58,926 nucleotides of DNA from Bacteroidaceae bacterium (GCA_963622445.1 CAVFHY010000002.1:1-58926), one strand, 5' to 3'. Positions 11,322 to 35,679 are shown, counted from the stretch's first letter. Numbers and translations are program-made. The notes: generated from the sequence alone by a model not told the origin.

Positions 11322-12440
11322 TTATTGCTGGCGGGTGCCGATAGCGTTGTAGCGGGTGCCGTCCCTGGTGATGACAAGTTGCCCATTCTCGATAGTCTTC
11401 TTTACGCGGGAAGTAGAGACGGTTGCATCTATGATGCCGGAAGTACCTTGCTTGTAGAAATACACATTGTCGATATAGCAAGTCGCCGGCATCGCAGCCC
11501 ATTTCAGTTGGTATATACCGGCTGCGTTAATCCCTGCAAAGTCGGTCGCAAGGTCTATATCCAATGCATTCCAACCTGCTACAAGGGTATAGGTATGCAG
11601 CGCCTCTTTGCCCCAAATCGGTGTAAACTGAATCGTCCCTGCCTCAGCCACATAGACATCCATATGCAGCATCGGATAGTCAGATAGTGCCGCAATAGCC
11701 TGATTGCTATTCAGTTCCCAGCCCATATAGTTGCCCGTTGTGCAGTAGTACGCCTTGTCGTCATCCGCAAGGTTCACTTCTTGAATAGCGGTCGTCTGCC
11801 CCCAACTGCCAATAGCCATCACCGTACCGGCCGTATAAGCGTCCGAGTAAATGGAGAATACATCGGCAGCAGCGTATATCGGAGCGGTTGCAGGAGCCGG
11901 GTGCGTCACGGGATCCGGCGTTACGGCGTCGCCCACCTCCTTGATAGAGATGTTCGAAATCGTGATTTGCGTACCGGCAGCCGCATAGCCAAAGTCAAAC
12001 ACAAGAATCTTGTTATTGTCTTTCACGCCATTGCCTTGTTCAGAGATAAAGGTATAATCTGTGTTTGCAGGCAACTTAATCGTCTGATTGGCAAATACCA
12101 CCTCTGCATTATCATCCATCTTGAGCGTAACACCGCCCAACTCTTTGTTCGAGTGGAACTTCACCGACACGATGTATGCCTTCGTCTCGTCGAATGCTAC
12201 ATTGTGGTTCAGTTTTACCTGTCCTTGCCACTGAGCCGACAGGCCATTTTTGATATCCACCGAGAGGATTCCAGTCGTGGCATCGTAGGTGACGGTGCTG
12301 GTCTTGTCTTCTGTCCAATTGGGTGCAATGTAGGTATAGTTTATTGACGCCTGTGAGGGGTCAAACAGTTCCGTTCCATCAGCCCAAGCCGCTGCCGCCA
12401 TACAGAACAGAGCAGCCACAAAAGTAAAAACTTTTTTCAT
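11322..12440 (-). CDS. Secreted non-catalytic protein: CBM-like beta-sandwich + 'VYFYK' module + T9SS C-terminal sorting domain
   Basis: Signal peptide MKKVFTFVAALFCMAAAAWA. C-terminal KKTIENGQLVITRDGTRYNAIG (T9SS type-A CTD style). The C-terminal ~185 aa are paralogous to the C-terminus of the 1034-aa neighbour. Confidence 0.8.
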   Translation of the reverse strand: MKKVFTFVAALFCMAAAAWADGTELFDPSQASINYTYIAPNWTEDKTSTVTYDATTGILSVDIKNGLSAQWQGQVKLNHNVAFDETKAYIVSVKFHSNKELGGVTLKMDDNAEVVFANQTIKLPANTDYTFISEQGNGVKDNNKILVFDFGYAAAGTQITISNISIKEVGDAVTPDPVTHPAPATAPIYAAADVFSIYSDAYTAGTVMAIGSWGQTTAIQEVNLADDDKAYYCTTGNYMGWELNSNQAIAALSDYPMLHMDVYVAEAGTIQFTPIWGKEALHTYTLVAGWNALDIDLATDFAGINAAGIYQLKWAAMPATCYIDNVYFYKQGTSGIIDATVSTSRVKKTIENGQLVITRDGTRYNAIGTRQQ

Positions 12441-12512
12441 GATCGTTTTGTGTTAGTTCGTGTGTTGTATTATTGTCATTTTATGTATTCTTCGGTGCAT
12501 GAATCAAAGACA

Positions 12513-12548
12513 CTACCTCACAGTTCTCTCTCGAGAACTGCAAGGTAG
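12513..12548 (-). terminator. Imperfect 16-bp hairpin between the 1034-aa and 372-aa genes
   Basis: CTACCTCACAGTTCTC..GAGAACTGCAAGGTAG, with 2 mismatches in the stem. Confidence 0.4.
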
Positions 12549-12563
12549 TATTGTCCTATATCA

Positions 12564-15500
12564 TTACTCAATCACTTGCCCCATAGCATTGTAGCGGATG
12601 CCGTCACGAGTGATGACAAGTTGGCCATTCTCTATGGTCTTCTTTGCGGGAGAAGTAGAGGAAGTAGCGTCTATCATTGTAGTTTTGTCTTGCTTGTAGA
12701 AATAGACATTGTCGATGAAGCAAGTAGCCGGCATAGCAGCCCATTTGAGTTGGAAGATAGTTGCCAAGTCTATTGCTGCGAAGTCCGACTTAAGGTCGAT
12801 ATTGAACACATTCCAACCGGCGGCAAGGGTATAGGTCTTAACTGCCTCACCACCTGTCCAAATCGGCGTGAACTGAATCGAGCTTGCCTCCTCTACATAG
12901 ATGTCTATATGGCAGTACGGGTAGTCGGTTACATCAACGGTTGCACCCAATTCCCAGCCGAGATAGTTGCACTTGGTATAGAACAGAGCCTTGTCGTCCG
13001 TAGCCAATGTAACCTCGGTTTCAGCGGTCGTTTGGCCCCAACTCCCCATGGTGCGTGCAACAACCGGTGTGTAGGCATCGGAATAGATTGCCTTTACATC
13101 ATCCGCCGTGACAGTAGGTGCTACAGCCGCTGTTGGGAGTGCCTTGGTCGTGAACGACAGCGTTTCTACATTGGCAGCCGCATTGCCTGCCTCATCGACG
13201 GCTTTCACAGTAAGTGCATAGTCCGTATCTGCTTCAAGACCCGAAACGGTGAAAGTAACAGCCGTGGCAGAAGCAGCGTTTTGTGTGGCTATCTGCAATT
13301 CGCCGTTGAGGACTTGGAATATAACTGCACCCGAGTTGTCGGTAGCCTTCGCCGTGATGTCCACCGATACATAAGAAGGCGTTGCCGATACTGTGAAGTC
13401 GGTCGGTGCCTCTGTGTCCACATCGGGCGCTTGGGTGGTATAGAAATAGATATTATTGAGCCAGAAGGTCTTGTTCGAAGCGTTGTCTATCTTGAGTTGG
13501 AAGACATTGGTCCAGTCGGTAACACCGGCAAACTCGGTAAGAGGAATATCAAAACTGTTCCATTGTTCGCCAACGACAGACTTGGTAACACCGACTTCTG
13601 TACCACCGTGAATCGGAACGAAGCGCAAGGTCATATCCTCTTCGCACCATACATCAACATGGAGAGCCTCCATAGAAGCGCAGTTGAGTGCAAAATCAAT
13701 CAAACCGAAATAGCCAGATGCAATGGTGGTAAACTTCTTGCCGTAGGTATCTTGGGTATAGGCAGTGCCGCTTCCCCAGTCACCAAAGTTGCAGTCTGCC
13801 GAATAGGTAGCCGAATAGATGGCTTTCACTTGGTCTGCCGGGTAGGTGGGAACGGCAGGAAGAGCCTCCGGTGCGGTCTTGTGTGCAGGGGTGGTAACCT
13901 CCACATTCTTGGAGTTGTCCGATTCGTTGCCTACGAGGTCGAATGCCGTAATGGTGAAATTGTATGTGGTAGATGGCGTTAGATCCGTAACGGTAATGTT
14001 GCCATCCTTAGCGGTGCATTTGGCGTCAATGCTATTCGTAGCGTCCACTACATGATAGGAAGCCACGCCTACATTGTCGGTAGCCGAAACAGCGATAACG
14101 GCTGTGTTGTAGGTATTGGAAACCAAAGCGGCCGATACCATAACCGGCTTCTCCTCATCAGCCGGCGCAGTGGTCGGTGTACCAAAGACTTTCATCTCGA
14201 ATATCTTCATACCATACTGGGTGGCTGCCTTGGTGCTGTAGAAGCGTACATAGCGTACTACCGAAGCATTCTTAAGGTTGTCACCGTATATCAAGTCGGT
14301 ACGCCCGTCAATACCGGCAACACCCACATAGTTGTAGGCTTCATTCCACGTGGCGTTATCCACCGAGCAGTCGATATGGTACTCCTGCGAACAAGCCCCC
14401 TCGAAGAGAATCGAGATAAAGTTAAGGCTGTAGTAGTCGCCCAAATCGAGCGTGAACCACGAATCGTAGGTACGCGAGGTCTCATCAGCGGCTGTGCTAC
14501 CCGTAGCAGAACCTTGCCATACACTACCTTCATTGCCATCAACGGCATAGAAAGCATCCGTACCACCTGTACCCATATCGGATTGTGCAATCACCTTGTT
14601 GTCGGTGGAGATATTGGTACTGAGGGCTACATTGGTACCCTCGTAACAGAAGAGGCTGACAGGGTCGCTGCTGACGCTGCCCGAGATAGCCGTAATGGTA
14701 ACAGCCCCTAACTTGGCAGCCGTGAAGACACCGTCTGCAACCGTACCTGCGTCTGCGGGCGACACCGTATAGGTAATCTCCGCCTCCATGGTTTCGCCAT
14801 CTTGGTCTTTGGCCGTAGCGGTAAGCGCCACCGTCTCACCGACCTTAACGATGTCGGCTGCCGACTTGAGCGTGATAGTGGTCAGCGTCTGCTCCTTTTT
14901 CTCGAAAGCACGCAACTCCCAGAAAGAGTAGCCATAGCCCGTCGCACGCTCGATGCCATAGAAACGCACATACTTGGCATTCTGCTCGCCAACCGAAAGA
15001 GTCTGCAAATAGGGGAAGCCCGATAGGGTTTGGTCGGTAACGGCACTGATAGCGGTCCAGGTCGTGCCATCGTTGCTGACCTCGAGGCGGAAACTCTTGG
15101 CATACGCGTTCTCCCAAAGGATTTGCACCGTATTGAATTGGCTCTGCTCTGCCATCTCGCACATCCACCATTGGTCATCCGTATGGTCGGACTCCCAGCG
15201 AGTACCCTCGTTGCCGTCATTACCGTTGGAAGCCGTACCCGAGGAGGCAGTAGCCGTCTCGTTGAGCACTACATTGTCCTTTTGGGCGGCAGCACCATCG
15301 GCATAGTAGACATGGAAGACAACGGTGCCCTGCGCATGCACGACCGTCACCTCGGTCTCTTGTGCCGTAAAGGCAGAGAGGTGCAAAATAATACCTGCAC
15401 CCTGAATATCACTCGACACCGAACAGGAAGAAATACCCGAAGGGAAAGTCATGTAGATACCCGCCTCCGAAGCAAAACCGGGTTTTTGGATATTCACAAC

Positions 15501-15668
15501 GCTAAGACCGTCAACGGTCTCTACCTTGTACTTGTTGGAGTAAGCACCTCCGCCGACACCATCGCCAACGAAGACATACTGCGACCAATCAACGGCTGCA
15601 AAAGCCGTTACTGTTGCACATAGACACATAAGCGCTATGGCAAATAATCGAAAAGATACCTTTTTCAT
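12564..15668 (-). CDS. Large secreted multi-module protein: 2x F5/8 type C (discoidin/CBM32-like), Big_2, 2x FN3-like, 2x 'VYFYK' modules, T9SS CTD; no catalytic domain recognised
   Basis: Signal peptide MKKVSFRLFAIALMCLCATVTAFA. Discoidin-type NGNDGNEGTRWESDH..QWWMCEM...FRLEVSNDGTTW and AVDGNEGSVWQG...YHIDCSVDNATW. Big_2-type ITLKSAADIVKVGETVALTATAKDQDGE. FN3-like PVMVSAALVSNTYNTAVIAVSATDNVGV.. and TDFTVSATPSYVSVDITAKATDN... C-terminal KKTIENGQLVITRDGIRYNAMG. Confidence 0.85.
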   Translation of the reverse strand: MKKVSFRLFAIALMCLCATVTAFAAVDWSQYVFVGDGVGGGAYSNKYKVETVDGLSVVNIQKPGFASEAGIYMTFPSGISSCSVSSDIQGAGIILHLSAFTAQETEVTVVHAQGTVVFHVYYADGAAAQKDNVVLNETATASSGTASNGNDGNEGTRWESDHTDDQWWMCEMAEQSQFNTVQILWENAYAKSFRLEVSNDGTTWTAISAVTDQTLSGFPYLQTLSVGEQNAKYVRFYGIERATGYGYSFWELRAFEKKEQTLTTITLKSAADIVKVGETVALTATAKDQDGETMEAEITYTVSPADAGTVADGVFTAAKLGAVTITAISGSVSSDPVSLFCYEGTNVALSTNISTDNKVIAQSDMGTGGTDAFYAVDGNEGSVWQGSATGSTAADETSRTYDSWFTLDLGDYYSLNFISILFEGACSQEYHIDCSVDNATWNEAYNYVGVAGIDGRTDLIYGDNLKNASVVRYVRFYSTKAATQYGMKIFEMKVFGTPTTAPADEEKPVMVSAALVSNTYNTAVIAVSATDNVGVASYHVVDATNSIDAKCTAKDGNITVTDLTPSTTYNFTITAFDLVGNESDNSKNVEVTTPAHKTAPEALPAVPTYPADQVKAIYSATYSADCNFGDWGSGTAYTQDTYGKKFTTIASGYFGLIDFALNCASMEALHVDVWCEEDMTLRFVPIHGGTEVGVTKSVVGEQWNSFDIPLTEFAGVTDWTNVFQLKIDNASNKTFWLNNIYFYTTQAPDVDTEAPTDFTVSATPSYVSVDITAKATDNSGAVIFQVLNGELQIATQNAASATAVTFTVSGLEADTDYALTVKAVDEAGNAAANVETLSFTTKALPTAAVAPTVTADDVKAIYSDAYTPVVARTMGSWGQTTAETEVTLATDDKALFYTKCNYLGWELGATVDVTDYPYCHIDIYVEEASSIQFTPIWTGGEAVKTYTLAAGWNVFNIDLKSDFAAIDLATIFQLKWAAMPATCFIDNVYFYKQDKTTMIDATSSTSPAKKTIENGQLVITRDGIRYNAMGQVIE

Positions 15669-15769
15669 GGTTGAAATTGAATTAGTTAGTTATTATGTTA
15701 TGTTGTTTGCTTGAATGATGCGTTTGTATTGCTATGGAGTGTTTGGCACACGACAGCAAACACACCGGC

Positions 15770-16897
15770 TTACTCTACGACGGTACCTAAAGCGTTGTAG
15801 TAGATGCCATTGTGGAGGATAAGGAGTTCGCCGTTGCGAATTACCTTTTGGGCGTGACGGGCCAAGGTCTCGACTGCCTCAATGGCTGTGGAAGAATCCT
15901 GACACAACTGCGAAGCCGTTACTTCAAAAGGATTGGTAACCCACTGACCATCGCCCAATGCCGGCGTATGCCAGAAGACATTGCAAGTAAAGTCCAAACC
16001 GGCGAGTTCGTCGAAAACCAACTCGGTGGTAACGACCGTACCTGCATTCTTGGTTCCGACCTCTTTTGCTACACCGTTAATCTCTACATGATACCAGTCG
16101 ATAACCGTTTCGCTGTTGGTCAGCACCTTGACGCCAATGGAAGTATCACTCTTCTTGGTGATAGTCAGCAGGATACGACCTGCTGGGTCGCCAAAGTCGG
16201 CATTACCGAGATGCCCCGTGGGGAAATCGCAATAGGTAAGGCTCGATGTGGTGAAAGACACCTCCTTGTAGTTCTCGGAGAGCAAACCCGTGGTTTTCAG
16301 GGCATAGATTTGGAGCGTATAAGCCGTGCCGCTCGCAAGCCCCGTTACAGTAATCTGTCCGTCTGCGGGAACGAAAGAGCCGAGTTTGGTCTCACCGCTC
16401 TGCACCTGATAGAGCGCAATACTGTCCGCCGGGGTTGCCGAGACGGCTATGACTGCGCTGTTGTGGGTGGCACTGACGAAAGTGGCACTCTCCATGACAG
16501 GCGCCTTGGTGTCCTGCTCGCCATCGCCGCAAGTACTCCACTCGATGTCGCTCAGCGTACCGAAATTGACCTCACCCGGCATCAAGACATAGAGCGGGGT
16601 GTAGAAAACGGGGTCGGATTCTGCGGCTATGGAGCAGACCAGTTTGGTGGGGGTGTTGGTCGTAATCGTGGTACGGATATCCACCGCCCCCGGGTTGAAG
16701 AAAGTACCACCAAAGCCTGCCAAATTTTCGCCCTCGACAGTCAGGCGATAGTTGCCCAGCGAGAGTTTCTCGCACGAAAGATAAATCGTGTTCGTCCCTT
16801 GAGTCAGTTCTTCGTGGCAGTACACCTTGGCAAAGCCACACTCTGCGCCGAACAACGCGGCGGAAAGCAGAAGAAATGAAAGTAGATTTCTTTTCAT
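15770..16897 (-). CDS. Secreted protein with a central FN3-like domain and T9SS CTD (function unknown)
   Basis: Signal peptide MKRNLLSFLLLSAALFGAEC. FN3-like KAPVMESATFVSATHNSAVIAVSAT... shares AVIAVSAT with the 1034-aa protein. C-terminal QKVIRNGELLILHNGIYYNALG. Confidence 0.8.
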   Translation of the reverse strand: MKRNLLSFLLLSAALFGAECGFAKVYCHEELTQGTNTIYLSCEKLSLGNYRLTVEGENLAGFGGTFFNPGAVDIRTTITTNTPTKLVCSIAAESDPVFYTPLYVLMPGEVNFGTLSDIEWSTCGDGEQDTKAPVMESATFVSATHNSAVIAVSATPADSIALYQVQSGETKLGSFVPADGQITVTGLASGTAYTLQIYALKTTGLLSENYKEVSFTTSSLTYCDFPTGHLGNADFGDPAGRILLTITKKSDTSIGVKVLTNSETVIDWYHVEINGVAKEVGTKNAGTVVTTELVFDELAGLDFTCNVFWHTPALGDGQWVTNPFEVTASQLCQDSSTAIEAVETLARHAQKVIRNGELLILHNGIYYNALGTVVE

Positions 16898-17032
16898 GAC
16901 TGTGTATTTGATTTAGTTAACATATATAAGTTGCCTATCCCTTGCGTAAGGGTTGCTTATCCCTTGCTGATAAGGTGCTTTTCGGTTGTTTGTAGATTTT
17001 AATTATTCCTATTGTTGGCAGGGGCGTAATAG

Positions 17033-28142: not shown

Positions 28143-28239
28143 GGTAGAAGTTCGATTTTGAAAGGGGAACTATTTTTCTTTGCGTGTGTTTGAAATGTTT
28201 ATGTAAGGATGCTTGGGCAAGTATCGGGGGGCAGCGGGA

Positions 28240-29508
28240 TTATTGCGCCTCCTCGCGCTGATAGACACGCACCCAATCGACATACATGATACGCTGCGTA
28301 TCGAAGATGGCGTCGTCCACCGTGCCGCCCATATTGCCGCCTATAGCCAAATTGAAGATAATGAAATGCGCCTTATTGAACGGCCACGCTTGGGCGTTGT
28401 CTATCTCGCTCTCCCATGAGGTGGCATAGACCACACCATCGACCGTGAAACGAATACAATCCTTACCGTTCTCTTCCTCTTGGCACCACTCTACTCCATA
28501 GGTATGGAAACCACCCGCCAACGATTGGTCAAAGAAATGGGTACTCGACCAGTTGTTGCCACGCGTGCCGTTCTTGAGCGGGGTATGCAGAGCAAACGAT
28601 GCACGAGTGGGCTGCGAACCGATATGCTCGATGATATCTATCTCGCCACAAGCCGGCCACGAACCTTTGTTGCCCATCATCCAGAACGCAGGCCATGTGC
28701 CTTGCCCGCCCGGGAAACTGATACGCGCCTCGATTTTTCCATAAGTGAATGTCTTCTTGTCCTTCGAGAGAATACGCGCAGAGGTATAGTTACGGTTCTC
28801 GTACGCCTCCTTGCGTGCCTCTATCTCGAGGCAACCGTTCTGCACACGGATGTTTTCGGTACGGGTGGTATAGTACTGCAACTCGTTGTTGCCCCAACCG
28901 CCACCACCGATATTGTAGTCCCAAACACTCTCGTCGAGAGAAGTGCCATCAAACTCATCCGACCACACCAATTTGTAGTCGCCCCAATGGTGTGCCACTG
29001 CTACTATTGCGGTATGGCTCTCAACAGGAGTAGCTAAGGTGATGGTAGCATTACCCGGGGCGATGGCGGTAACAAGACCGGAATTATCAACACGCGCCAC
29101 GCTCTCGTCGGAAGACGACCAAGTGAGTTCAAGATCGTAGGTATTTCCGTACGAGAATTGGTAGGTATCGCCTTTCTCGAGGCTGACAAGAGCCGGTGTG
29201 ATACGCAACGAAGAACCATCGGTAGCCGTAACAAACACCTCGCAAGTGGCTGTAGCAGAACCCTTCTTGGCCGTAATAATCGCCTTGCCGATAGCCTTGG
29301 CCGTGACAGTGCCATAGAAAACCGTTGCCACTGAATCGTTGGAGGAAGCCCACTCTACATCTGCCACATCGCCAGACAGCGTAATGGTCTGAATATCACC
29401 CGGAATCATCTGGAGTGTATTGGGCGTAAGCACAAGGCTTACCTTATCGGTGCAAGCCGCAAGAAAAATGGAGCCGAATATGAAAAACGTGGTCAGTTGG
29501 CGTGTCAT
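28240..29508 (-). CDS. GH16 beta-1,3-glucanase with two N-terminal Big_2 domains, lipoprotein
   Basis: Signal ...GSIFLAAC. Big_2-like LTPNTLQMIPGDIQTITL... and ITPALVSLEKGDTYQF... GEIDIIEHIG (ExDxxE). WPAFWMMG. Confidence 0.85.
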   Translation of the reverse strand: MTRQLTTFFIFGSIFLAACTDKVSLVLTPNTLQMIPGDIQTITLSGDVADVEWASSNDSVATVFYGTVTAKAIGKAIITAKKGSATATCEVFVTATDGSSLRITPALVSLEKGDTYQFSYGNTYDLELTWSSSDESVARVDNSGLVTAIAPGNATITLATPVESHTAIVAVAHHWGDYKLVWSDEFDGTSLDESVWDYNIGGGGWGNNELQYYTTRTENIRVQNGCLEIEARKEAYENRNYTSARILSKDKKTFTYGKIEARISFPGGQGTWPAFWMMGNKGSWPACGEIDIIEHIGSQPTRASFALHTPLKNGTRGNNWSSTHFFDQSLAGGFHTYGVEWCQEEENGKDCIRFTVDGVVYATSWESEIDNAQAWPFNKAHFIIFNLAIGGNMGGTVDDAIFDTQRIMYVDWVRVYQREEAQ

Positions 29509-29546
29509 AAGGGTCTGTTTTTTTGTGAAAAGATTTGATTGGAGCC

Positions 29547-29571
29547 ATAAGGAGGGTATCAGCCTCCTTAT
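29547..29571 (-). other. Intra-operon RNA hairpin after the SGBP-like gene
   Basis: ATAAGGAGG-GTATCAG-CCTCCTTAT forms a perfect 9-bp stem. It lies between the 29601 stop and the 29508 start. Confidence 0.4.
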
Positions 29572-29600
29572 AGCAAAGATATAATTTTCGGCTTACGAGA

Positions 29601-30530
29601 TTATTTCTTGTAGAAATAAACAGCATCCAAGTTGAGTTGAGCACCGGCAACACCCTCTGTCAGAACTACAAATACATTGACACCTGCAGCGCAAGTGGTA
29701 GAAGCCAAGGCGGTAGCATATTTCGACATAGGAATATCAAACTCTTGCCAACTGCCGTCACGCGTGAAGTCGGAATAGATAGGACCATCGTATACAACCG
29801 ATGTACCCAAGACAAACTTGGTGTTCTCTGCACCAAAGATATAGAAGCAGTGGCTGTACTTGTCGGTCGATTTGATAGCCAAGTGCAGATAGTAATCATC
29901 CGGATTGGCTACGATAGCCGCACGCAATGCCTCTGCACCCTGCCAACCCGTGCCGCTCTCGGTCAAGCAGAAACCACAGCCAGACCATCCGACTTCTCCT
30001 ACTGTCAGAGCAGTAAAGCCGTCGGTATTGCCATAGAAGTTCAAACCGGTAGGATTGTCATTGGCTACATACGTTCCATCCCATACATAAAGGAATTGGT
30101 CTACATCGTTCGGTGCAAAGGAAGCCGCAATTTTCGATTGGACGGCCTCCGTGGTGGTAGCATCAAGGATGACAGGCCAAATCTGGCTCCCCTTGACCTC
30201 TGCAGTCTTGCCACTGTCATCGCCACCTTTGGCGGTAACCTTAACGACGCAAGTCTTGGTAGTACCGTTAGCCGTAGCCGAAATGATAGCCGTACCCTCG
30301 GCAACAGCGGTAACAAGACCATTATTGTCCACGGTAGCAATGGTCTCTGCAGAAGACTTCCACTCGTCCACCGTAATGTTGGCTACGAGTTGTTGGGTCT
30401 CACCTACCTTGAGGGTAGTAGAGGAGGGCGTGAGTTCGAGTGTTTTCTCATCGTTTTTGTCTTTGCATGCATTCAGACCGAAAAGAGTCAGTGCTGCGAG
30501 TGCAAATGCACAAATTTTGTTCGCTTTCAT
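29601..30530 (-). CDS. SGBP-like surface lipoprotein (Big_2 + C-terminal 'VYFYK' beta-sandwich)
   Basis: Signal MKANKICAFALAALTLFGLNAC. Big_2-like LTPSSTTLKVGETQQLVANI... Ends ...WQEFDIPMSKY...LNLDAVYFYKK. It sits immediately downstream of SusD, the usual SGBP slot. Confidence 0.7.
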   Translation of the reverse strand: MKANKICAFALAALTLFGLNACKDKNDEKTLELTPSSTTLKVGETQQLVANITVDEWKSSAETIATVDNNGLVTAVAEGTAIISATANGTTKTCVVKVTAKGGDDSGKTAEVKGSQIWPVILDATTTEAVQSKIAASFAPNDVDQFLYVWDGTYVANDNPTGLNFYGNTDGFTALTVGEVGWSGCGFCLTESGTGWQGAEALRAAIVANPDDYYLHLAIKSTDKYSHCFYIFGAENTKFVLGTSVVYDGPIYSDFTRDGSWQEFDIPMSKYATALASTTCAAGVNVFVVLTEGVAGAQLNLDAVYFYKK

Positions 30531-30666: not shown

Positions 30667-32313
30667 TCAATAGCCCGGGTTCTGCGACATGGTTGTCGGA
30701 TTGAGTTGGATCTCCTCCTGCGGGATAGGGAATAACTCGTGCTTGCCCTTGATGAACGAAGTGATATGCGACCGGGCATTGGTGGATTCGGTCTCGGCAT
30801 AGGCATCCATGTGCTCCTTAAGCCCGGTGCCACTGACACCCTCCCAACGAACAAGGTCGAACCAACGGTGTCCCTCCATGGCGAGTTCGACACGACGCTC
30901 GTGGCGCAAGCATTGCTCCGTGGTAGGAGAAGCGACCTCGACACCATTTACACGGAAGGTATATGTACCGACCTCGCCCAGACCTGCACGGGAACGCACC
31001 TTGTTGATATAGGTTTTGGCGGTTGCCTCATCGCCCAAACCAAGAGTTGCTTCGGCGTACATAAGGAGAACATCGGCATAACGAATCTGACGATTGTTGA
31101 GCGGACCACGGCTGGCATGCAGGCTCCACTTGCCAAAACCACCACCCAGGCTCTCCGGGTCACGATACATACCGTACTTGTTGTTGAGGTAACGGTTGTC
31201 GAGATAAATCTCCTCTGCCGGCGATTCGATGAGCGAATCGGCAGGATTGAGAATAGCCACCGCACGACGAAGCGAATCCACAGGTTCGAACTCGTCGTAC
31301 AGGTTCTGCGTCGGATGGTCGAAACCCCAGCCTCCGCCAATCTTGGACGAACGGGAACGCATCAGAATCTGCGTGAAAGAGCCTGCCGTGAAACCAAAGC
31401 CCTCGCCATAGTCGCTCCAAGGCTGCTCGGAATACTGAATCTCGAAAACGGACTCCTCGCCATTCTCACCGGCAAGGGTGAAATTGTCCTCGTAATTGGG
31501 GCAAAGGTCGTACTCGCCCGAAGCGATGATGCTATCGCCCCACGCCTTGGCTGCCGCAAAGCACTCTGCCGCGTCGGCACCAATCTGCGCACTCCAATAA
31601 GAAGAGGCACGGTAGAGATTGACCTTCATCAACATAGCCTGAGCAGCCCCCCTGGTAGCACGGCCGACCTGCTCGTCCTCCAGTTGACTGCGCAGCCAAA
31701 GACCCTTGTTCGCCTCCGTGAGGTCGCTTAAAATCTGGTCGAAAACCGCCTCTACCGACGAACGAGGCACGCCCCAACTGTCGGAATTGTCGATAACGGT
31801 AGTCGAGACAGGCACACCGCCATAGACACGCAAGAGGCGGAAATAGTAGTAAGCACGCAAGAAATACGCCTCGCCGAGCAGACGATTTTTCATCGAAGCG
31901 GTGAAATTCTCGTCTATCCCTATCTCCATATTTGAGATATACTTGATGGCCAAATTGCAGCGGGCAATACCCTGATACTGCGCACGATAGAAATCGAGCA
32001 ACAAGGTATTCTGCGAGGTAGTGCGCCAGTTCTCCATATCATAAGCATCCGCCATATCGGTGGTGCTGCCGCCGCCCTTGAGCGCATCGTCGCTGACAAT
32101 ATCGCCAATGAACCACTCGGGGCAATAGGTGCTGTTGTATTCCCACATGAGAGGCACATAGCAACCCGTCACATTCTCGACTGCCGCATCGGTGGAAACG
32201 AAATAGTCGTCCAAACGCGTCGTACCCGGCTCTATCTCGGTCAGATAGTCTTTGCAACCCGTGAAAGCCACGCAAGCCGCCAACGCCAAAACGATATATT
32301 GTGTCTTTTTCAT
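30667..32313 (-). CDS. SusD/RagB-family outer-membrane glycan-binding lipoprotein
   Basis: MKKTQYIVLALAACVAFTGC lipobox (Met 6 of the track ORF). SusD-like length and TPR-like helical content. Directly downstream of the SusC-like gene. Confidence 0.9.
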   Translation of the reverse strand: MKKTQYIVLALAACVAFTGCKDYLTEIEPGTTRLDDYFVSTDAAVENVTGCYVPLMWEYNSTYCPEWFIGDIVSDDALKGGGSTTDMADAYDMENWRTTSQNTLLLDFYRAQYQGIARCNLAIKYISNMEIGIDENFTASMKNRLLGEAYFLRAYYYFRLLRVYGGVPVSTTVIDNSDSWGVPRSSVEAVFDQILSDLTEANKGLWLRSQLEDEQVGRATRGAAQAMLMKVNLYRASSYWSAQIGADAAECFAAAKAWGDSIIASGEYDLCPNYEDNFTLAGENGEESVFEIQYSEQPWSDYGEGFGFTAGSFTQILMRSRSSKIGGGWGFDHPTQNLYDEFEPVDSLRRAVAILNPADSLIESPAEEIYLDNRYLNNKYGMYRDPESLGGGFGKWSLHASRGPLNNRQIRYADVLLMYAEATLGLGDEATAKTYINKVRSRAGLGEVGTYTFRVNGVEVASPTTEQCLRHERRVELAMEGHRWFDLVRWEGVSGTGLKEHMDAYAETESTNARSHITSFIKGKHELFPIPQEEIQLNPTTMSQNPGY

Positions 32314-32364
32314 AATAGAATCTCCCATAGTATTAATTCATCATTCGTAATTCTTCATTCATAA

Positions 32365-35300
32365 TTAGAAAGTGGCATTCAGACCGAAAGTGAAAGTACG
32401 GCTCTGCGGATAGTTTCCGTAATCGACACCGCTACCTACCTCCGGGTCGTAGCCCGAATACTTTGTGATGGTGAAGAGGTTGCTTGCCGTAACATAGAAA
32501 CGCAAGCGGCTGCAGAAGAATTTCTCCGTTACCTTCTTGGGCAGCGTATAGCCAATTTGGGCGTTCTTGAGGCGCAGGTAGGAGCCGCTCTCGAGGAAAC
32601 GCGTGGAGTTCTCTGTATTGGTGGCCGAACCGAGCGGGTTTGGAATAGTACCGTTGCGATTCTCCAACTCCATCCAGTTGACGCCCTGTGCAAGCAATGC
32701 GTCACGCACCAAATCGGTATAGCCTACCCAAACATCGTCAGCCATATAGGAGGCAAGCGCACTGCTGGAGCCGTCGCCCTCGAGACGCTCACGAAGGGCA
32801 TTGTAAATTTGATTGCCATAGACACCTTGGAAGAACAACTGAATATCAACCCCATAGAACTCGGCACCGAGATTGAAGCCGTAGGTCAGTTTCGGGAACG
32901 GATTGCCGATATTGCTCTTGTCGTTCTCGTCGATTTTGCCGTCGCCGTTGAGGTCCTTGTAGCGAGCGTCACCCGCATGCACCGGAATAGAAGTAGCGTC
33001 GTAGGAATAGAGTTGCGAAAGTGCCTCCTCGTCGGACTGATAGACTCCCTCGTACTCATAGCCCCAGAAGGAATTGAGCGACATACCTACATCGGTCTTG
33101 GTTCGGTCGCCCCAGATAGGCGAGCCGCCATTGATCTCGGTCAGTTCGTTGTGCAGGTAACTGAGGTTGGCACCTATGTTATAATGTACTTTACCGACCT
33201 GATTATCATGATTGAGCGTCAACTCAAATCCCTCGTTGCGGATATTGCCCACATTCTTGACAAGCGAATAGCGGTTGCCCACATGGGCTGGCGCATTGAC
33301 ATAGAGCAGAGCGTCCTTGGTATCGCGGCAGAAATAATCGAGCGTACCGCTCAACTTGCCGTTCCAGAAAGAGAAATCGATACCTGCATCCCACTGCTGG
33401 TTGGTTTCCCATTTGCCGTCCAAATTAACCTGCGTCAGGACCGCCGAGCCGCCATTGATGGTCTGCGACTTGCCCAGCGTATAGCCGTAGAATACATCCT
33501 GACTCGATCCCATAGTCGGCGTGAAAGAACCCGACGGGATACCATCGTTACCTACCTGACCGAATCCGGCACGAATCTTCAAGTTGTCGAGCCACTCGAC
33601 TTGCTTGAGCCAACTCTCCTCGCTCATACGCCATGCCAGCGCCACAGAGGGGAAGTAGCCCCACGGGTTCTTGCTGAAGCGGGAAGAAGCATCGGCACGG
33701 AAGTTGGCGGTTACCATATAGCGGTCGGCATAGGAATAGAACACACGACCGAGGAACGAGACACGACGGATACGCGATACCTCATCGGAAGCGTTGGTGC
33801 GGTCGGTGGTCGCCTTGCTCAGATACCAGTTGCTCTCGATAGGATTGAGAATCTGTGCGCCCGAGCCGCTGATACCATAGGTATTGTACTCCTGCCAAGT
33901 CTGACCTGCCATAACCGAGAAATTGTGTTTGCCAATTTTCTTGGCGTAGGTAACAGTGGTCTCCTCCTGCAACGAGCAGTAGCGCGTCATGGAAGAGGTG
34001 ATGTAGTTCTTCTCGGAGTAGTTGTAGGAAGTATAGGTATTGGGATAAGTGAAGTTGCGGGTGCGGTTGAGCGTATAGTCCACCGAGAAACTCGGGCGGA
34101 TGGTAAGCCCGTCGATAGGCTTGATTTCGAGATAGATGTCGCCGATGGCACGCTCGTTCTTATTAGATGGTTCGGTGTTGTAGGACATCTGGTAGGGGTT
34201 GGTCACATTCTTGAAGTTCGACCCTGCAGAATAATGCCCCGAGAGGTCGTCGCCATTGACATTGACAGAACCATCGGGATAGTAAACAGGATCCCACGGA
34301 GACATAGCCAAAGCAGCGGAGATAACCGATGCACCCGCAGAAGAACTGTTGTTCATGGCGTTACGGCCTTTGGAGGTGGCGAAACTGAGGTGCTCGCCCA
34401 CCTTCAACCACTTACGGATTTCGTAGTCGGTATTGAGGCGGATGGTGAAGCGCTGGTAGTTACTGCCTATAATGGTACCCTCTTGGCCAAAGTAGTTGGC
34501 AGAGAGAGCGTAGTGCCCTTTGTCGTTGCCGCCATCTACGCTCAGGTTGTAGTTGTGCATGAAGGCGTTGGCATTGAATACCTCGTCCTGCCAATCGGTT
34601 TCCTGGTCGGCATAGTTGAAGTTGGTGGGATAGTAAACCGATTTGCCCAACTTGTACATCTGGAGCCAACCAGCAAAGCCTTGGTTGTTGTAATAGGAGA
34701 TTTCCTCGGCACCATTACGCATAGCGCCGATACGCAACTCGGTCTCGGCGTGGCTGCGGGAGTCCATCACATCGAGTTTGCGCCAACGGTTCTGGAAGCC
34801 CCAATAAGCATCGAAAGTGATGTTGGGTTTCGCACCGGCAGAGGCACCGGTCTTGGTGGTAACGATGATGACACCGTTCGCACCTCGCGAACCGTAGATA
34901 GCCGTGGCAGAAGCGTCCTTAAGAATCTCCATCGACTGAATGTCGTTCGGGGCAAGGAACGAGATGTCGCTCGTGATGACACCGTCAACGACATAAAGCG
35001 GGTCGTTGCCACCAATAGCAGAACCAATACCACGAATACGAATGGTCGCCGCCTCACCGGGTTGACCAGAGTTGGTAGTAACCGTAACGCCTGCCGCACG
35101 CCCCTGCAAGGCTTGGTCGAGGCCAGAAACGGGGGCTTTCATCAGTTCGTCTGCGCTGACAGAGGTTACGGCACCCGTCAAGTCCGATTTGCGCATCGTG
35201 CCATAGCCCACAGCAACTACTTCCTGCAGCAGGACATTGTCCGACTGAAGGGTAATGCGCATGGGCGAGGCAGTAGCCTTGACCTCTTGGGTCTTGTAGC

Positions 35301-35553
35301 CCATATACGAAACGGAGAGAATGTCGCCCGCCTTGGCTTGGAGCGAGAAATTGCCGTCGAAATCCGTAATTGTGCCGTTGGAAGTGCCTTTGACCATCAC
35401 ATTAGCACCGATAACGGGATCCGGTTCTCCTTCGGCATAGACAACGCCCGTAACAGTGAGCGTCTGCGCCGATATACTATAAGGAAACAGAATCGCGAAG
35501 AGTGCGAATAGGATGGGGGGGGTGTTTCTGAGTATATTCGTAATCATTCTCAT
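32365..35553 (-). CDS. SusC-like TonB-dependent transporter
   Basis: N-terminal carboxypeptidase-regulatory-like region VTGVVYAEGEPDPVIGANVMVKGTSNGTITDFDGNFSL. Plug/TonB-box region. Terminal beta-strand ...TFGLNATF. Confidence 0.95.
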   Translation of the reverse strand: MRMITNILRNTPPILFALFAILFPYSISAQTLTVTGVVYAEGEPDPVIGANVMVKGTSNGTITDFDGNFSLQAKAGDILSVSYMGYKTQEVKATASPMRITLQSDNVLLQEVVAVGYGTMRKSDLTGAVTSVSADELMKAPVSGLDQALQGRAAGVTVTTNSGQPGEAATIRIRGIGSAIGGNDPLYVVDGVITSDISFLAPNDIQSMEILKDASATAIYGSRGANGVIIVTTKTGASAGAKPNITFDAYWGFQNRWRKLDVMDSRSHAETELRIGAMRNGAEEISYYNNQGFAGWLQMYKLGKSVYYPTNFNYADQETDWQDEVFNANAFMHNYNLSVDGGNDKGHYALSANYFGQEGTIIGSNYQRFTIRLNTDYEIRKWLKVGEHLSFATSKGRNAMNNSSSAGASVISAALAMSPWDPVYYPDGSVNVNGDDLSGHYSAGSNFKNVTNPYQMSYNTEPSNKNERAIGDIYLEIKPIDGLTIRPSFSVDYTLNRTRNFTYPNTYTSYNYSEKNYITSSMTRYCSLQEETTVTYAKKIGKHNFSVMAGQTWQEYNTYGISGSGAQILNPIESNWYLSKATTDRTNASDEVSRIRRVSFLGRVFYSYADRYMVTANFRADASSRFSKNPWGYFPSVALAWRMSEESWLKQVEWLDNLKIRAGFGQVGNDGIPSGSFTPTMGSSQDVFYGYTLGKSQTINGGSAVLTQVNLDGKWETNQQWDAGIDFSFWNGKLSGTLDYFCRDTKDALLYVNAPAHVGNRYSLVKNVGNIRNEGFELTLNHDNQVGKVHYNIGANLSYLHNELTEINGGSPIWGDRTKTDVGMSLNSFWGYEYEGVYQSDEEALSQLYSYDATSIPVHAGDARYKDLNGDGKIDENDKSNIGNPFPKLTYGFNLGAEFYGVDIQLFFQGVYGNQIYNALRERLEGDGSSSALASYMADDVWVGYTDLVRDALLAQGVNWMELENRNGTIPNPLGSATNTENSTRFLESGSYLRLKNAQIGYTLPKKVTEKFFCSRLRFYVTASNLFTITKYSGYDPEVGSGVDYGNYPQSRTFTFGLNATF

Positions 35554-35671
35554 GGTATATTTGGTGTTTGTTGATTATCTTGAGAGCGTGTTGCGCAGCG
35601 GAAGATTCGATGAACTGTCCGGCGGCGTACGCTACGGGCATTCTCGGACAGGTTGCTTCCGAAAAGCAGTG

Positions 35672-35679
35672 CAAAAGTA
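35672..35679 (-). promoter_or_regulatory. Candidate -7 box (TACTTTTG on the minus strand) for the PUL operon
   Basis: The plus strand reads CAAAAGTA, ~120 nt upstream of the susC-like ATG at 35553. Confidence 0.5.

What the first reader, a model, noticed from the sequence alone, without database searches (positions are those of the whole stretch)
11322..35679. About 24 kb beta-1,3-glucan utilization locus that merges Sus-type import, T9SS secretion and cytoplasmic phosphorolysis
One strand carries, in order: a SusC-like gene, a SusD-like gene, an SGBP-like lipoprotein, GH16 (2x Big_2, lipoprotein), a GH128-like lipoprotein, GH16 (CBM + T9SS tail), GH16 (lipoprotein), a GPH symporter, a 1130-aa phosphorylase candidate, GH3, and three T9SS-tailed binding-module proteins.

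Three GH16 laminarinase-type enzymes plus GH128-like plus GH3 point to beta-1,3-glucan as the substrate (laminarin, yeast glucan or curdlan type). The unusual feature is the combination of three logistics in one locus. First, surface lipoproteins feed a SusCD pore. Second, four proteins carry the ...NGQL(V/L)Ixx(D/N)GxxYNxxG T9SS sorting tail, a pathway absent from Bacteroides sensu stricto. Third, an inner-membrane symporter sits next to a cytoplasmic phosphorylase, implying that oligosaccharides rather than glucose enter the cytoplasm.

Hairpins after the SGBP gene (29547-29571), after GH3 (16937-16976), after the 375-aa gene (15739-15763) and after the 1034-aa gene (12513-12548) suggest graded or sub-operonic expression.
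Basis: partly seen in the sequence, partly recalled or inferred. Interest (0 to 1): 0.65.

Follow-up and report, generated by a model that had tools for sequence, protein, structure and literature searches.

The report
Beta-1,3-glucan locus with unfamiliar short export tail
This is an ordinary, well-conserved gene cluster for eating beta-1,3-glucan in an uncultured gut or rumen Bacteroidales bacterium, but four of its proteins end in a 38-residue tail that matches no catalogued domain and sits exactly where related proteins carry the type IX secretion signal.

Summary
The gene list holds. Thirteen minus-strand genes encode SusC, SusD, a Big_2 binding lipoprotein, three GH16 laminarinase-type enzymes, GH128, an MFS_2/GPH symporter, GH3, three non-catalytic proteins and a 1130-aa protein. 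That last protein is a GH149 beta-1,3-glucan phosphorylase, scoring above NCBIfam's equivalog cut-off.

The same gene order recurs in uncultured Paludibacteraceae-like MAGs. GH149 with an MFS transporter inside Bacteroidetes PULs was published in 2018, so the "three logistics" combination is not new.

Three of the four hairpins exceed chance. The one after GH3 does not.

The "T9SS tail" is a real motif but not a recognised T9SS domain. It gets no TIGR04183, TIGR04131 or Pfam hit, whereas classical CTDs from sister lineages score 36-53 bits. It is about 38 residues, always at the extreme C-terminus, and matches 11,110 protein clusters.

In two protein families of this locus, orthologues carry either this tail or a full-length T9SS CTD at the same position. 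It is therefore probably a short, uncatalogued export or anchoring signal working in place of the CTD. This is inferred, not shown.

The locus is a new member of a known kind. The tail is the interesting part.

The parts
35672..35679 (-). TACTTTTG, a match to the Bacteroidetes -7 promoter box TAnnTTTG, 119 nt upstream of the susC ATG
   Evidence: It is the only match in the 718-nt upstream spacer. The motif occurs 22 times on this strand in the window, so this is a consensus match only.
32365..35553 (-). SusC-like TonB-dependent transporter, 1062 aa
   Evidence: CarbopepD_reg_2, Plug and TonB_dep_Rec_b-barrel. No STN domain.
30667..32328 (-). SusD-like lipoprotein, 553 aa
   Evidence: SusD_RagB 5e-42 and SusD-like_3. 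Lipobox FTGC.
29601..30530 (-). Surface glycan-binding lipoprotein (Big_2 plus a C-terminal beta-sandwich ending ...AVYFYKK), 309 aa
   Evidence: Big_2. Lipobox LNAC followed by KDKNDE. Position conserved in L001, L002, L004, L007, L010 and L012.
29544..29574 (-). 12-bp-stem hairpin after the SGBP gene, immediately preceded by TATCTTTG (29581-29574)
   Evidence: -19.6 kcal/mol, z=-3.3, 0 of 200 shuffles as good. for the box. Whether it is a terminator or a 5'-UTR structure was not decided.
28240..29508 (-). GH16 laminarinase-type lipoprotein with two Big_2 domains, 422 aa
   Evidence: best PDB match 3ILN laminarinase, 185 bits. GEIDIIE catalytic motif. Lipobox LAAC.
26880..28142 (-). GH128 (Glyco_hydro_cc) with a CBM6/35-like domain, lipoprotein, 420 aa
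   Evidence: PF11790 1.6e-52. GH128 structures 6UAW/6UAV at 181/179 bits, 8J3X at 200 bits. Lipobox LFAC.
25291..26817 (-). GH16 with an N-terminal CBM-like domain, a signal-peptidase-I signal (ASA|Q) and the short C-terminal tail (25294-25404), 508 aa
   Evidence: GETDIIE. Tail found. Best PDB match 5NBO at 164 bits.
24273..25250 (-). GH16 laminarinase-type lipoprotein, 325 aa (start revised to the MMKHT... ATG)
   Evidence: GELDIVE. Lipobox LSSC.
22766..24223 (-). MFS_2 / GPH-family sugar:cation symporter, 485 aa
   Evidence: PF13347 1.4e-87 over the full-length profile. Adjacent to GH149 in 44 of 80 GH149 loci.
19338..22730 (-). GH149 beta-1,3-oligoglucan phosphorylase, 1130 aa, no signal peptide
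   Evidence: NF058639 equivalog 1422.6 bits, cut-off 1150. PDB 6HQ6/6HQ8 1036 bits over residues 6-1082, RPEWNDANNALVG motif shared.
17033..19333 (-). GH3 beta-glucosidase, lipoprotein signal, 766 aa
   Evidence: Glyco_hydro_3, Glyco_hydro_3_C and Fn3-like. Lipobox LASC.
15770..16897 (-). 375-aa secreted protein of unknown fold (weak fn3) ending in the short tail (15773-15883)
   Evidence: Of 120 homologues, 103 end in the tail and 17 carry a full-length CTD at the same position.
12564..15668 (-). 1034-aa multimodular binding protein (2x F5/8 type C, fn3, repeated SGBP-B-like modules) ending in the short tail (12567-12677)
   Evidence: The homologue L007:2920-5973 ends in a TIGR04183 CTD.
12510..12551 (-). 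17-19-bp-stem hairpin after the 1034-aa gene
   Evidence: -32.9 kcal/mol, z=-5.4.
11322..12440 (-). 372-aa two-domain beta-glucan-binding protein (SGBP-B-like) with a signal-peptidase-I signal and the short tail (11325-11435)
   Evidence: AF2 model, pLDDT 85, two beta-sandwiches, disordered linker 333-344, small beta-hairpin tail. Foldseek 7KWB E=1.4e-15; 7KWC 30% identity over 142 columns, rmsd 2.8.
11256..11290 (.). 14-15-bp-stem hairpin between the convergent 372-aa gene and the regulator gene; a likely bidirectional terminator and the end of the locus
   Evidence: -32 kcal/mol, z=-5.2.
8332..11220 (+). 962-aa regulator with Reg_prop propeller repeats and a LuxR/GerE helix-turn-helix domain; candidate regulator of the locus
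   Evidence: Near-full-length homologues (25-30% identity) flank GH149 loci in Flavobacteriaceae and Cyclobacteriaceae (L029, L034, L063, L016, L024, L027 and others). Not adjacent in L081.

Best explanation
The locus is a conserved laminarin-type (beta-1,3-glucan) polysaccharide utilisation locus. Its owner is an uncultured Paludibacteraceae-like Bacteroidales bacterium from a rumen or hindgut.

Inferred pathway:
1. At the cell surface, three GH16 endo-glucanases and a GH128 cut the glucan.
2. A Big_2 lipoprotein, SusD and the 372-aa and 1034-aa binding proteins hold the glucan (the 375-aa protein has no assigned function).
3. SusC imports oligosaccharides into the periplasm, where GH3 trims them.
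4. The MFS_2 symporter carries short beta-1,3-oligosaccharides into the cytoplasm.
5. GH149 cleaves them with phosphate to give glucose-1-phosphate. This saves ATP, which suits an anaerobe.
6. A LuxR-type propeller regulator next door probably controls the locus.

Proteins reach the surface in two ways. Five have lipoprotein signals. Four have ordinary signal peptides plus a 38-residue C-terminal tail, with consensus TAIDNxxVxxKAxKxIENGQLxIIxNGxxYNAxGxxV.

The tail is most likely a short, uncatalogued export and/or surface-attachment signal. It does the job that the type A C-terminal domain of the type IX secretion system does in sister lineages.

What is shown and what is inferred: family assignments, synteny and the tail's properties are shown. 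Substrate, pathway order, cellular locations and the tail's function are inferred.

Confidence is about 0.85 for the locus function and about 0.55 for the tail being a T9SS-type signal. The figure below is for the whole statement.
For: Locus:
- Pfam, NCBIfam and PDB family calls for every gene.
- Catalytic motifs are intact in all three GH16s.
- GH149 lacks a signal peptide and sits beside MFS_2. The same pairing occurs in 44 of 80 GH149 loci.
- The order SusC-SusD-SGBP-GH16-GH128-GH16-GH16-MFS-GH149 is conserved in L001, L002, L004, L009, L010 and L012. The downstream tail-protein genes are conserved in L003, L004 and L081.
- GH149 in Bacteroidetes PULs was already linked to beta-1,3-glucan degradation (PMC5827456).
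- The model of the 372-aa protein best matches the laminarin-binding BtSGBP-B (7KWB/7KWC; PMC7974029).

Tail:
- It is present in all 22 inspected homologues of the 372-aa protein.
- Its profile matches 11,110 clusters. In all of the top 150 the match ends at the last or second-to-last residue, with a single exception six residues from the end.
- Carriers have N-terminal signal peptides and surface-type domains: Big_2, Big_3, Flg_new_2, F5/8C, CBM26 and LRR_5.
- None of 86 carriers has TIGR04183 or TIGR04131.
- In the 375-aa family, 103 of 120 homologues end in the tail. The other 17 carry full-length CTDs at the same place, 10 of them PF18962.
- The 1034-aa family shows the same swap: L007 carries a TIGR04183 CTD of 51 bits.
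- Among 1.73 Mb of loci, the tail occurs only in the Paludibacteraceae-like set. Those loci show no classical CTD, whereas sister Bacteroidales loci have CTDs and no tail.
- There is precedent for a short signal: the last 22 residues of the HBP35 CTD suffice for secretion of GFP (PMC10202324).
Against: - There are no expression, localisation or activity data for any gene here.
- The organism's T9SS core genes could not be looked for, and none lies in the window.
- The tail fails TIGR04183, TIGR04131 and PF18962.
- Profile-profile comparison with 29 classical CTDs or 7 PF19910-type CTDs is not significant: probability about 2%, and 10 of 150 column shuffles score as well.
- At 38 residues with three short predicted strands, the tail cannot form the seven-stranded Ig-like fold that defines a CTD.
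- The window's four tails end in E, Q or H, not in the motif-E lysines needed in P. gingivalis (PMC10202324).
- The tailed GH16's best solved relative is a mixed-linkage glucanase (5NBO), so the substrate range may be wider than beta-1,3-glucan.
- The regulator is not adjacent in the closest relative, L081.
Confidence: 0.7

Rival explanations
1. The tail is not an outer-membrane export signal. It is instead a small docking or anchoring module, dockerin-like or LPS/OMV-binding. It would hold already exported proteins on the cell surface or assemble them on a partner protein. Export would use some other, unrecognised feature.
For: - The tail is very strongly conserved across unrelated carrier proteins, as expected for a module that binds one fixed partner.
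- It is predicted as a separate beta-hairpin behind a disordered linker.
- It shows no significant similarity to any CTD.
- Carriers are mostly binding or adhesin-type proteins.
Against: - Carriers have plain signal-peptidase-I signals and no other shared feature, so nothing else is available to take them across the outer membrane.
- Orthologues carry a genuine T9SS CTD at exactly this position. The type A CTD itself combines export with attachment, so the two roles are not exclusive.
Confidence: 0.2
2. The main substrate is cereal or grass mixed-linkage beta-1,3/1,4-glucan, or beta-glucans in general, rather than beta-1,3-glucan.
For: - The tailed GH16's best solved relatives are 5NBO/7KR6 Bacteroides GH16s at 164 and 161 bits. 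5NBO is, from my memory, the B. ovatus mixed-linkage glucanase.
- The GH16s give weak partial hits to NCBIfam 1,3-1,4-glycanase models.
- Relatives come from ruminant and deer guts, where mixed-linkage glucan is abundant.
Against: - GH128 and GH149 are beta-1,3-specific families (PMC5827456).
- The other two GH16s match laminarinases best.
- The 372-aa protein resembles the laminarin-binding SGBP-B.
- Relatives add a GH30-like gene, which is typical of laminarin loci with beta-1,6 branches (by eye).
- All NCBIfam 1,3-1,4-glycanase hits lie far below their cut-offs.
Confidence: 0.15
3. The three downstream tail-protein genes (11322-16897) are separate transcription units. Their function is unrelated to the glucan locus and they are merely adjacent.
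For: - Strong hairpins separate them.
- They carry no catalytic domain.
- Their number and order vary among relatives: an extra 1068-aa gene in L081, and different sets in L001, L005 and L009.
Against: - They are on the same strand and follow GH149/GH3 in L003, L004, L081 and L082.
- The 372-aa protein and the repeated modules of the 1034-aa protein match a beta-1,3-glucan-binding SGBP.
- The SGBP lipoprotein inside the core locus ends in the same ...DAVYFYKK module end.
Confidence: 0.12
4. The tails are decayed remnants of T9SS CTDs, truncated pseudo-signals with no function of their own.
For: Four independent alignments place the tail on the first half of a CTD, ending at the vYNxxGxxV motif, as if the second half had been lost.
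Against: - 11,110 clusters keep the same 38 residues with several invariant positions, and the sequence always ends at the same point.
- 103 of 120 members of one family have it.
- Independent decay would not converge on one sequence and one end point.
Confidence: 0.03

Closest known systems
GH149-containing laminarin PULs and CAZyme clusters of marine Bacteroidetes (Kuhaudomlarp et al. 2018, PMC5827456; Christiangramia forsetii laminarin PUL, bioRxiv 10.1101/2023.09.07.556657)
   Same: - SusCD pair, GH16 endo-glucanases, GH3, a pfam13347 MFS transporter and a signal-less GH149.
- Multimodular SGBP and GH16 proteins with N-terminal Ig-like modules.
- A LuxR-type propeller regulator at the edge of several such loci.
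   Different: - The host here is an anaerobic gut or rumen Bacteroidales lineage.
- GH128 replaces GH17.
- There is no GH30 in this window, although relatives have one.
- There are three GH16s.
- Four proteins carry the short tail, which does not occur in any of the roughly 70 non-Paludibacteraceae-like loci examined.
Beta-1,3-glucan utilisation loci (1,3GUL) of human gut Bacteroides (Dejean et al. 2020, PMC7157763; Tamura et al. 2021, PMC7974029)
   Same: - SusC, SusD, SGBP-B, surface GH16 and GH3.
- The 372-aa protein's best structural match is BtSGBP-B, 7KWB/7KWC.
   Different: - From my knowledge of those papers, the Bacteroides loci use a hybrid two-component sensor, have no GH149 or MFS pair, and anchor every surface protein by a lipid.
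- Here the SGBP-B-like proteins have plain signal peptides plus the tail instead of a lipobox.
Pro_7066, the bacterial GH149 beta-1,3-oligosaccharide phosphorylase (PDB 6HQ6/6HQ8)
   Same: 1036-bit alignment over residues 6-1082, similar length, conserved RPEWNDANNALVG segment and no signal peptide.
   Different: The two differ in sequence. The alignment was not scored for identity, and the best GTDB relative is only 68% identical. Chain-length preference is untested.
T9SS type A C-terminal domain (TIGR04183 / PF18962)
   Same: - It sits at the extreme C-terminus of proteins that have Sec signal peptides.
- Its carriers are surface or secreted enzymes, adhesins and binding proteins.
- It occupies the identical position in orthologues.
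- It begins with the same TAIDN-like strand seen just before classical and PF19910-type CTDs of related taxa (by eye).
   Different: - It is 38 residues rather than 70-100.
- Three short strands are predicted rather than a seven-stranded Ig-like sandwich.
- It gets no HMM or profile-profile match.
- It has no D/E motifs or terminal lysines.
Flavobacterium johnsoniae chitin utilisation locus with T9SS-secreted ChiA
   Same: A SusCD-type locus whose soluble extracellular enzyme leaves by a C-terminal signal while the other components are lipoproteins. This is precedent for mixing the two routes (PMC10202324; PMC7426924, listed).
   Different: ChiA uses a roughly 100-residue 'type C' CTD. The substrate is chitin, and there is no cytoplasmic phosphorylase.

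Membership tests
Bacteroidota polysaccharide utilisation locus (PUL) | Adjacent susC-like (TonB-dependent transporter with Plug and barrel) and susD-like genes on one strand, with CAZyme genes | tested here: met
   susC 32365-35553 and susD 30667-32328 are 36 nt apart, followed by GH16, GH128, GH16, GH16, GH149 and GH3.
Bacteroidota polysaccharide utilisation locus (PUL) | Induction by the cognate glycan through a linked regulator | not testable with these tools
   No RNA run holds the locus. A LuxR-type propeller regulator is adjacent, and homologues flank other GH149 loci.
GH149 beta-1,3-glucan phosphorylase | Score above the curated equivalog cut-off, with full-length similarity to the characterised and crystallised Pro_7066 | tested here: met
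   NF058639 at 1422.6 bits versus 1150; 6HQ6 at 1036 bits over residues 6-1082.
GH149 beta-1,3-glucan phosphorylase | Phosphorolysis of beta-1,3-gluco-oligosaccharides to glucose-1-phosphate | not testable with these tools
   This needs an enzyme assay.
GH16 laminarinase-type endo-beta-1,3-glucanase | GH16 fold, E-x-D-x-x-E catalytic motif, and closest solved relatives that are laminarinases | tested here: met
   - PF00722 in all three.
- GEIDIIE, GETDIIE and GELDIVE.
- laminarinases among the top hits.
- For the tailed enzyme the top hit is 5NBO.
GH128 | Glyco_hydro_cc (PF11790) catalytic core with similarity to solved GH128 enzymes | tested here: met
   1.6e-52 over the full profile; 6UAW, 6UAV and 6UAX at 181, 179 and 132 bits.
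GH3 | GH3 N- and C-terminal domains plus the Fn3-like domain | tested here: met
   2.4e-64, 3.8e-40 and 1.6e-21.
T9SS type A CTD (TIGR04183 / PF18962) | Match to the family HMM | tested here: not met
   - No hit for whole proteins or for isolated tails at E<=10 or E<=1.
- 0 of 86 carriers hit.
- Positive controls from L002, L006 and L007 score 36-53 bits over model positions 1-72.
T9SS type A CTD (TIGR04183 / PF18962) | Seven-stranded Ig-like beta-sandwich of about 70-100 residues with motifs A-E (PMC10202324) | tested here: not met
   - The conserved unit is about 38 residues.
- The AF2 model shows three short strands after a disordered linker.
- There is no D/E motif.
T9SS type A CTD (TIGR04183 / PF18962) | Located at the extreme C-terminus of a protein with an N-terminal Sec signal | tested here: met
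   (top 150 all end at the C-terminus).
T9SS type A CTD (TIGR04183 / PF18962) | Remote homology detectable by profile-profile comparison | tested here: inconclusive
   - hhalign gives a probability of about 2%, and 10 of 150 shuffles score as well.
- Yet four alignments agree on the same register.
T9SS type A CTD (TIGR04183 / PF18962) | Co-occurrence with T9SS core genes, T9SS-dependent export, and cleavage by PorU | not testable with these tools
   Whole genomes of the carriers could not be scanned. No T9SS gene lies in the window.
T9SS type B CTD (TIGR04131) | Match to the family HMM | tested here: not met
SGBP-B-type surface glycan-binding protein | Tandem beta-sandwich architecture similar to a characterised SGBP-B, encoded in the PUL | tested here: met
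   7KWB E=1.4e-15; 7KWC 30% identity, rmsd 2.8 over 142 columns.
SGBP-B-type surface glycan-binding protein | N-terminal lipid anchor | tested here: not met
   The 372-aa protein has AWA|DG, a signal-peptidase-I type site with no lipobox. The tail takes the place of an anchor.

The most novel reading that the evidence does not exclude
The 38-residue tail is a new, fourth class of type IX secretion and attachment signal, about half the size of any known CTD. Alternatively, it is an independent surface-sorting tag. In a lineage of uncultured rumen and hindgut Paludibacteraceae-like Bacteroidales it has largely replaced the classical type A CTD. It marks more than 11,000 protein clusters that present annotation pipelines do not recognise as secreted.
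Probability: 0.5. Interest if true: 0.7.

Novelty: new variant of a known kind. Interest (0 to 1): 0.45.

Why it matters
The locus extends the GH149 phosphorolytic route for beta-1,3-glucan from marine bacteria to anaerobic gut and rumen Bacteroidales. There, saving one ATP per glycosidic bond is worth more. This is a modest, expected extension.

The tail matters more.
- Secretome and CAZyme-localisation predictions for rumen and hindgut metagenomes rely on TIGR04183 or PF18962 to call T9SS cargo.
- A clade-specific tag on about 11,000 clusters that these models miss means many surface enzymes, binding proteins and adhesins are currently labelled periplasmic or unknown.
- If T9SS recognises the tail, it would be a natural minimal signal. 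It could help define which part of a CTD the translocon and shuttle proteins actually read, a question the field's 2023 review lists as unanswered (PMC10202324).

Tried and rejected
1. Scanned the four tails alone against NCBIfam and Pfam at E<=10. Only chance hits appeared: shikimate dehydrogenase, hemP and similar.
2. Searched a tail profile against PDB sequences. Only chance-level matches to the P22 tailspike head-binding domain appeared, at E 0.03-0.14.
3. The word-indexed protein search with the tail alignment returned only short contig-end fragments, so it gave no domain context. The full HMMER scan was used instead.
4. hhalign of the tail against 29 classical CTDs and 7 PF19910-type CTDs, and the tail HMM against CTD-bearing orthologues, gave nothing significant. 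Homology to the CTD therefore stays a hypothesis.
5. 7 of 86 tail carriers match NF052644, a 'T9SS-dependent surface endonuclease'. I tried to find them by scanning 10 cluster representatives and missed them all.
6. Cluster look-ups for organism names returned none. Taxonomy rests on MAG titles and three Paludibacteraceae protein names.
7. Looked for RNA-seq runs to test graded expression. Only small metagenome-like runs hold the locus, with flat contig depth.
8. Literature searches for a described short T9SS signal, for T9SS in Paludibacteraceae and for DUF6383 found nothing relevant.
9. Sigma-70 promoter and terminator consensus scans gave counts near the shuffle expectation and were not used.
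10. The long plus-strand ORFs overlapping the genes (for example 32557-35511) were treated as shadow ORFs.

Full report
**Observation**

HMM searches support each label.

- SusC has CarbopepD_reg, Plug and barrel domains. SusD matches SusD_RagB at 5e-42.
- A 309-aa lipoprotein has a Big_2 domain.
- A 422-aa protein is GH16 with two Big_2 domains.
- A 420-aa protein has the Glyco_hydro_cc core (1.6e-52) and a CBM6/35-like end.
- Two further proteins are GH16.
- The transporter matches MFS_2 at 1.4e-87.
- GH3 has all three of its domains.
- A 1034-aa protein has two F5/8 type C domains and fn3 domains.

Comparison with solved structures agrees. The GH128-like protein matches the GH128 structures 6UAW, 6UAV and 6UAX. 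All three GH16s match laminarinase-type GH16 enzymes. All three keep the E-x-D-x-x-E catalytic motif.

- SusD, the SGBP, two GH16s, GH128 and GH3 have lipoboxes.
- One GH16 and the three downstream proteins have signal-peptidase-I type signals.
- The 1130-aa protein has no signal at all.

One correction: the third GH16 starts at 25250 (MMKHT...), not at the upstream ATG of the raw ORF.

**The phosphorylase**

The 1130-aa protein has no Pfam hit. It scores 1422.6 bits against NCBIfam NF058639, 'GH149 family 1,3-beta-D-glucan phosphorylase', an equivalog with a cut-off of 1150. It scores 1036 bits against the crystallised Pro_7066 (6HQ6/6HQ8) over residues 6-1082. It is therefore a member of a characterised family, not a mere candidate.

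The paper that founded GH149 already reported three relevant points (PMC5827456).
- Bacteroidetes GH149 genes lie in predicted PULs.
- Those PULs contain GH16 or GH17 and GH3 or GH30.
- Related clusters carry a pfam13347 transporter.

In my own sample of 80 GH149 loci from species-representative genomes, 44 have a homologue of the window's MFS gene and 51 have a GH16. The pairing of SusCD import with a symporter and cytoplasmic phosphorolysis is thus the known layout of this kind of locus.

**Conservation and host**

The closest GH149 among GTDB representatives is 68% identical. It comes from a Paludibacteraceae MAG. The next hits are uncultured Bacteroidales from rumen, reindeer and red deer.

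In L001, L002, L004, L009, L010 and L012 the order SusC-SusD-SGBP-GH16-GH128-GH16-GH16-MFS-GH149 is the same as in the window. In L003, L004 and L081/L082 the 375-aa-type and 1034-aa-type genes follow, and a 372-aa-type gene is confirmed only in L081/L082.

Several relatives have a roughly 545-aa gene after GH149 that by eye looks GH30-like. The window lacks it. The locus is therefore a conserved unit of a gut-associated Bacteroidales lineage.

**Binding proteins**

An AlphaFold2 model of the 372-aa protein was built from 36 sequences (mean pLDDT 85). It has two beta-sandwich domains, a disordered linker at 333-344 and a small C-terminal hairpin.

Its best structural matches are 7KWB and 7KWC, the SGBP-B of the Bacteroides thetaiotaomicron beta-1,3-glucan locus. 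The scores are E=1.4e-15 for 7KWB, and 30% identity with rmsd 2.8 over 142 columns for 7KWC (source paper PMC7974029).

The 1034-aa protein repeats the same module between fn3 domains. The label 'binding-module proteins' is therefore supported for these two. The 375-aa protein remains of unknown fold, with only a weak fn3 hit.

**Hairpins**

Each intergenic spacer was folded on the coding strand and compared with 200 shuffles.

| Spacer | Result |
|---|---|
| After the SGBP gene | 12-bp stem, z=-3.3 |
| After the 375-aa gene | z=-2.4 |
| After the 1034-aa gene | 17-19-bp stem, z=-5.4 |
| After GH3 | z=0.0, not above chance |

The spacer after GH3 holds two copies of a 10-mer, TATCCCTTGC. The same 10-mer appears three times upstream of susC.

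Expression could not be tested. The runs that hold the locus behave like DNA metagenomes.

**The tail: what it is not**

The four proteins end in K(K)xIxNGQLxIxxxGxxYNxxGxxxx. No other ORF of the window does.

None of these proteins, and none of the isolated tails at E<=10, matches TIGR04183, TIGR04131 or PF18962. The models are sensitive enough in this group. Four classical CTDs found in the sister loci L002, L006 and L007 score 36-53 bits over the whole 72-position model, while the tails of the window and of L001 give nothing at E<=1 in the same call.

A tail profile finds nothing meaningful among PDB sequences.

**The tail: what it is**

It is a conserved unit of about 38 residues, TAIDNxxVxxKAxKxIENGQLxIIxNGxxYNAxGxxV.

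- All 22 inspected homologues of the 372-aa protein have it.
- A profile search of 1.84 billion representative proteins finds 11,110 clusters at E<=0.001. In all of the best 150 the match ends at the last or second-to-last residue, with a single exception six residues from the end. The carriers range from about 60 to 1868 residues.
- Among 86 sampled carriers, those that appear complete begin with a signal peptide (about a quarter are N-terminally truncated or start without one). The commonest domains are Flg_new_2, Big_2, Big_3, CHB_HEX_C_1, Fn3_assoc, F5/8 type C, CBM26 and BspA-type LRR, all typical of surface proteins.
- None of the 86 matches TIGR04183 or TIGR04131.
- Seven match the 'T9SS-dependent surface endonuclease' model NF052644. 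Its last 70 positions are a CTD. I could not locate those seven to see which part matches.

In 1.73 Mb of fetched loci, a tail HMM hits only the window, L001, L003, L004, L005 and L081/82. It hits L009, L010 and L012 weakly. These are the Paludibacteraceae-like set. By a motif scan, those loci show no classical CTD. L002, L006, L007 and L067 have classical CTDs and no tail.

**The tail: why a T9SS-like role is still the best reading**

The strongest evidence is positional replacement in orthologues.

- Of 120 homologues of the 375-aa protein, 103 end in the tail.
- The other 17 are 40-60 residues longer. At the same point they carry a full-length CTD: ten of the PF18962 type and the rest of a PF19910/PF27154 type.
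- The homologue of the 1034-aa protein in L007 is 33% identical and has the same module order. It ends in a TIGR04183 CTD.

BLAST, MAFFT and two hhalign runs all lay the tail on the first half of the CTD. Its final YNAxGxxV falls on the CTD's vYNxxGxxV motif. The TAIDN start resembles the strand that precedes classical and PF19910-type CTDs in related taxa.

None of this reaches significance. The hhalign probability is about 2%, and 10 of 150 column shuffles score as well. Common descent remains a hypothesis.

Functionally, a protein with only a Sec signal needs some route across the outer membrane. The only feature these carriers share is the tail. A short signal also has precedent: the last 22 residues of the HBP35 CTD suffice to secrete GFP, although that region holds motifs D and E, which the tail lacks (PMC10202324). 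The same review lists only types A, B and C, all about 70-100 residues or longer.

My literature searches found no description of this tail. Pfam (2025 copy) and NCBIfam release 20 have no model for it.

**What could not be tested**

Whether the organism has T9SS core genes is unknown. The window has none, and whole genomes were out of reach. From memory, McBride and Zhu 2013 reported T9SS genes in Paludibacter and their absence from Bacteroides. I did not verify this here.

**Regulation**

No hybrid two-component sensor or sigma/anti-sigma pair is present. The convergent 962-aa gene (8332-11220) encodes Reg_prop propeller repeats and a LuxR-type helix-turn-helix domain. Near-full-length homologues flank GH149 loci in Flavobacteriaceae and Cyclobacteriaceae. 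That makes it the best candidate regulator. However, it is not adjacent in L081.

A TAnnTTTG box lies 119 nt upstream of susC, and another lies just before the SGBP hairpin. Both are consensus matches only.

**Verdict**

The substrate and the cytoplasmic phosphorolysis step are well supported. The claimed unusual merger of three logistics is the known design of GH149 loci plus a known way of exporting PUL enzymes.

The one real surprise is that the 'T9SS tail' is not a known T9SS domain. It is an uncatalogued, clade-restricted 38-residue tag of very wide use that stands in for the CTD.

Noticed in passing
window 36027-36058 (-) and 16936-16967 (+): The 10-mer (T/C)ATCCCTTGC occurs three times at 11-bp spacing about 470 nt upstream of susC. 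It occurs twice at 22-bp spacing, in the opposite orientation, between GH3 and the 375-aa gene. There are 9 matches in the window against 3.5 expected. Metagenome contigs pile up about 10-fold over 35756-36400 with many different flanks, so it looks like a dispersed short repeat. It is absent from the equivalent places in related loci.
   Followed up: partly
P0496, P0497, P0500, P0502, P0504, P0518 (homologues of window 15770-16897): A second kind of full-length C-terminal domain (Pfam PF19910 / PF27154) sits at the same position as the tail and the type A CTD. In P0518 it starts with TAIDN, like the tail. It may be an intermediate between the classical CTD and the short tail.
   Followed up: partly
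L001 13470-15119, L003 3574-5205, L004 13425-15074, L005 4674-6302, L009 12979-14619, L010 13015-14634: Relatives carry a roughly 545-aa gene directly after GH149. By eye it looks like GH30 (...GGPNHVNNF... motif). The window goes straight from GH149 to GH3, so it lacks this probable beta-1,6-debranching step.
   Followed up: no
window 12564-15668, N-terminal ~120 aa; also P0022, P0051, P0057, P0071, P0264: An unannotated N-terminal module (...DWxxYxFxGDGAGGGxYxNKYKV...VNIQxPGF...) recurs at the start of many tail-bearing proteins. It has no Pfam hit.
   Followed up: no
window 29574-29581 (-): A TATCTTTG box matching the Bacteroidetes -7 consensus directly abuts the 5' arm of the hairpin after the SGBP gene. 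The hairpin could therefore be a 5'-UTR structure of the next gene rather than a terminator.
   Followed up: no
window 5730-6123 (+), 44307-44378 (+), 44451-44748 (+): These are a tmRNA gene (tag DNNTVALAA), a tRNA-Gly(CCC) gene and bacterial RNase P RNA class A. All are housekeeping RNAs flanking the locus at a distance.
   Followed up: yes
window 41923-42600 (+): A T5orf172 / MUG113 (GIY-YIG-like) domain gene lies between an M20 peptidase gene and gcvT. It may be a small mobile or defence-related insertion.
   Followed up: no
window 54630-58629: A PHO4-family phosphate transporter gene (753 aa, minus strand) lies next to Bacteroidetes-type phoB and a phoR that runs toward the end of the contig.
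   Followed up: no
L002 20562-21539 (-): An ORF ends ...GTHEIMLGYSFCY. By eye it looks like a PorP/SprF-family T9SS membrane protein. It lies close to a classical-CTD protein in a sister lineage that lacks the short tail.
   Followed up: no
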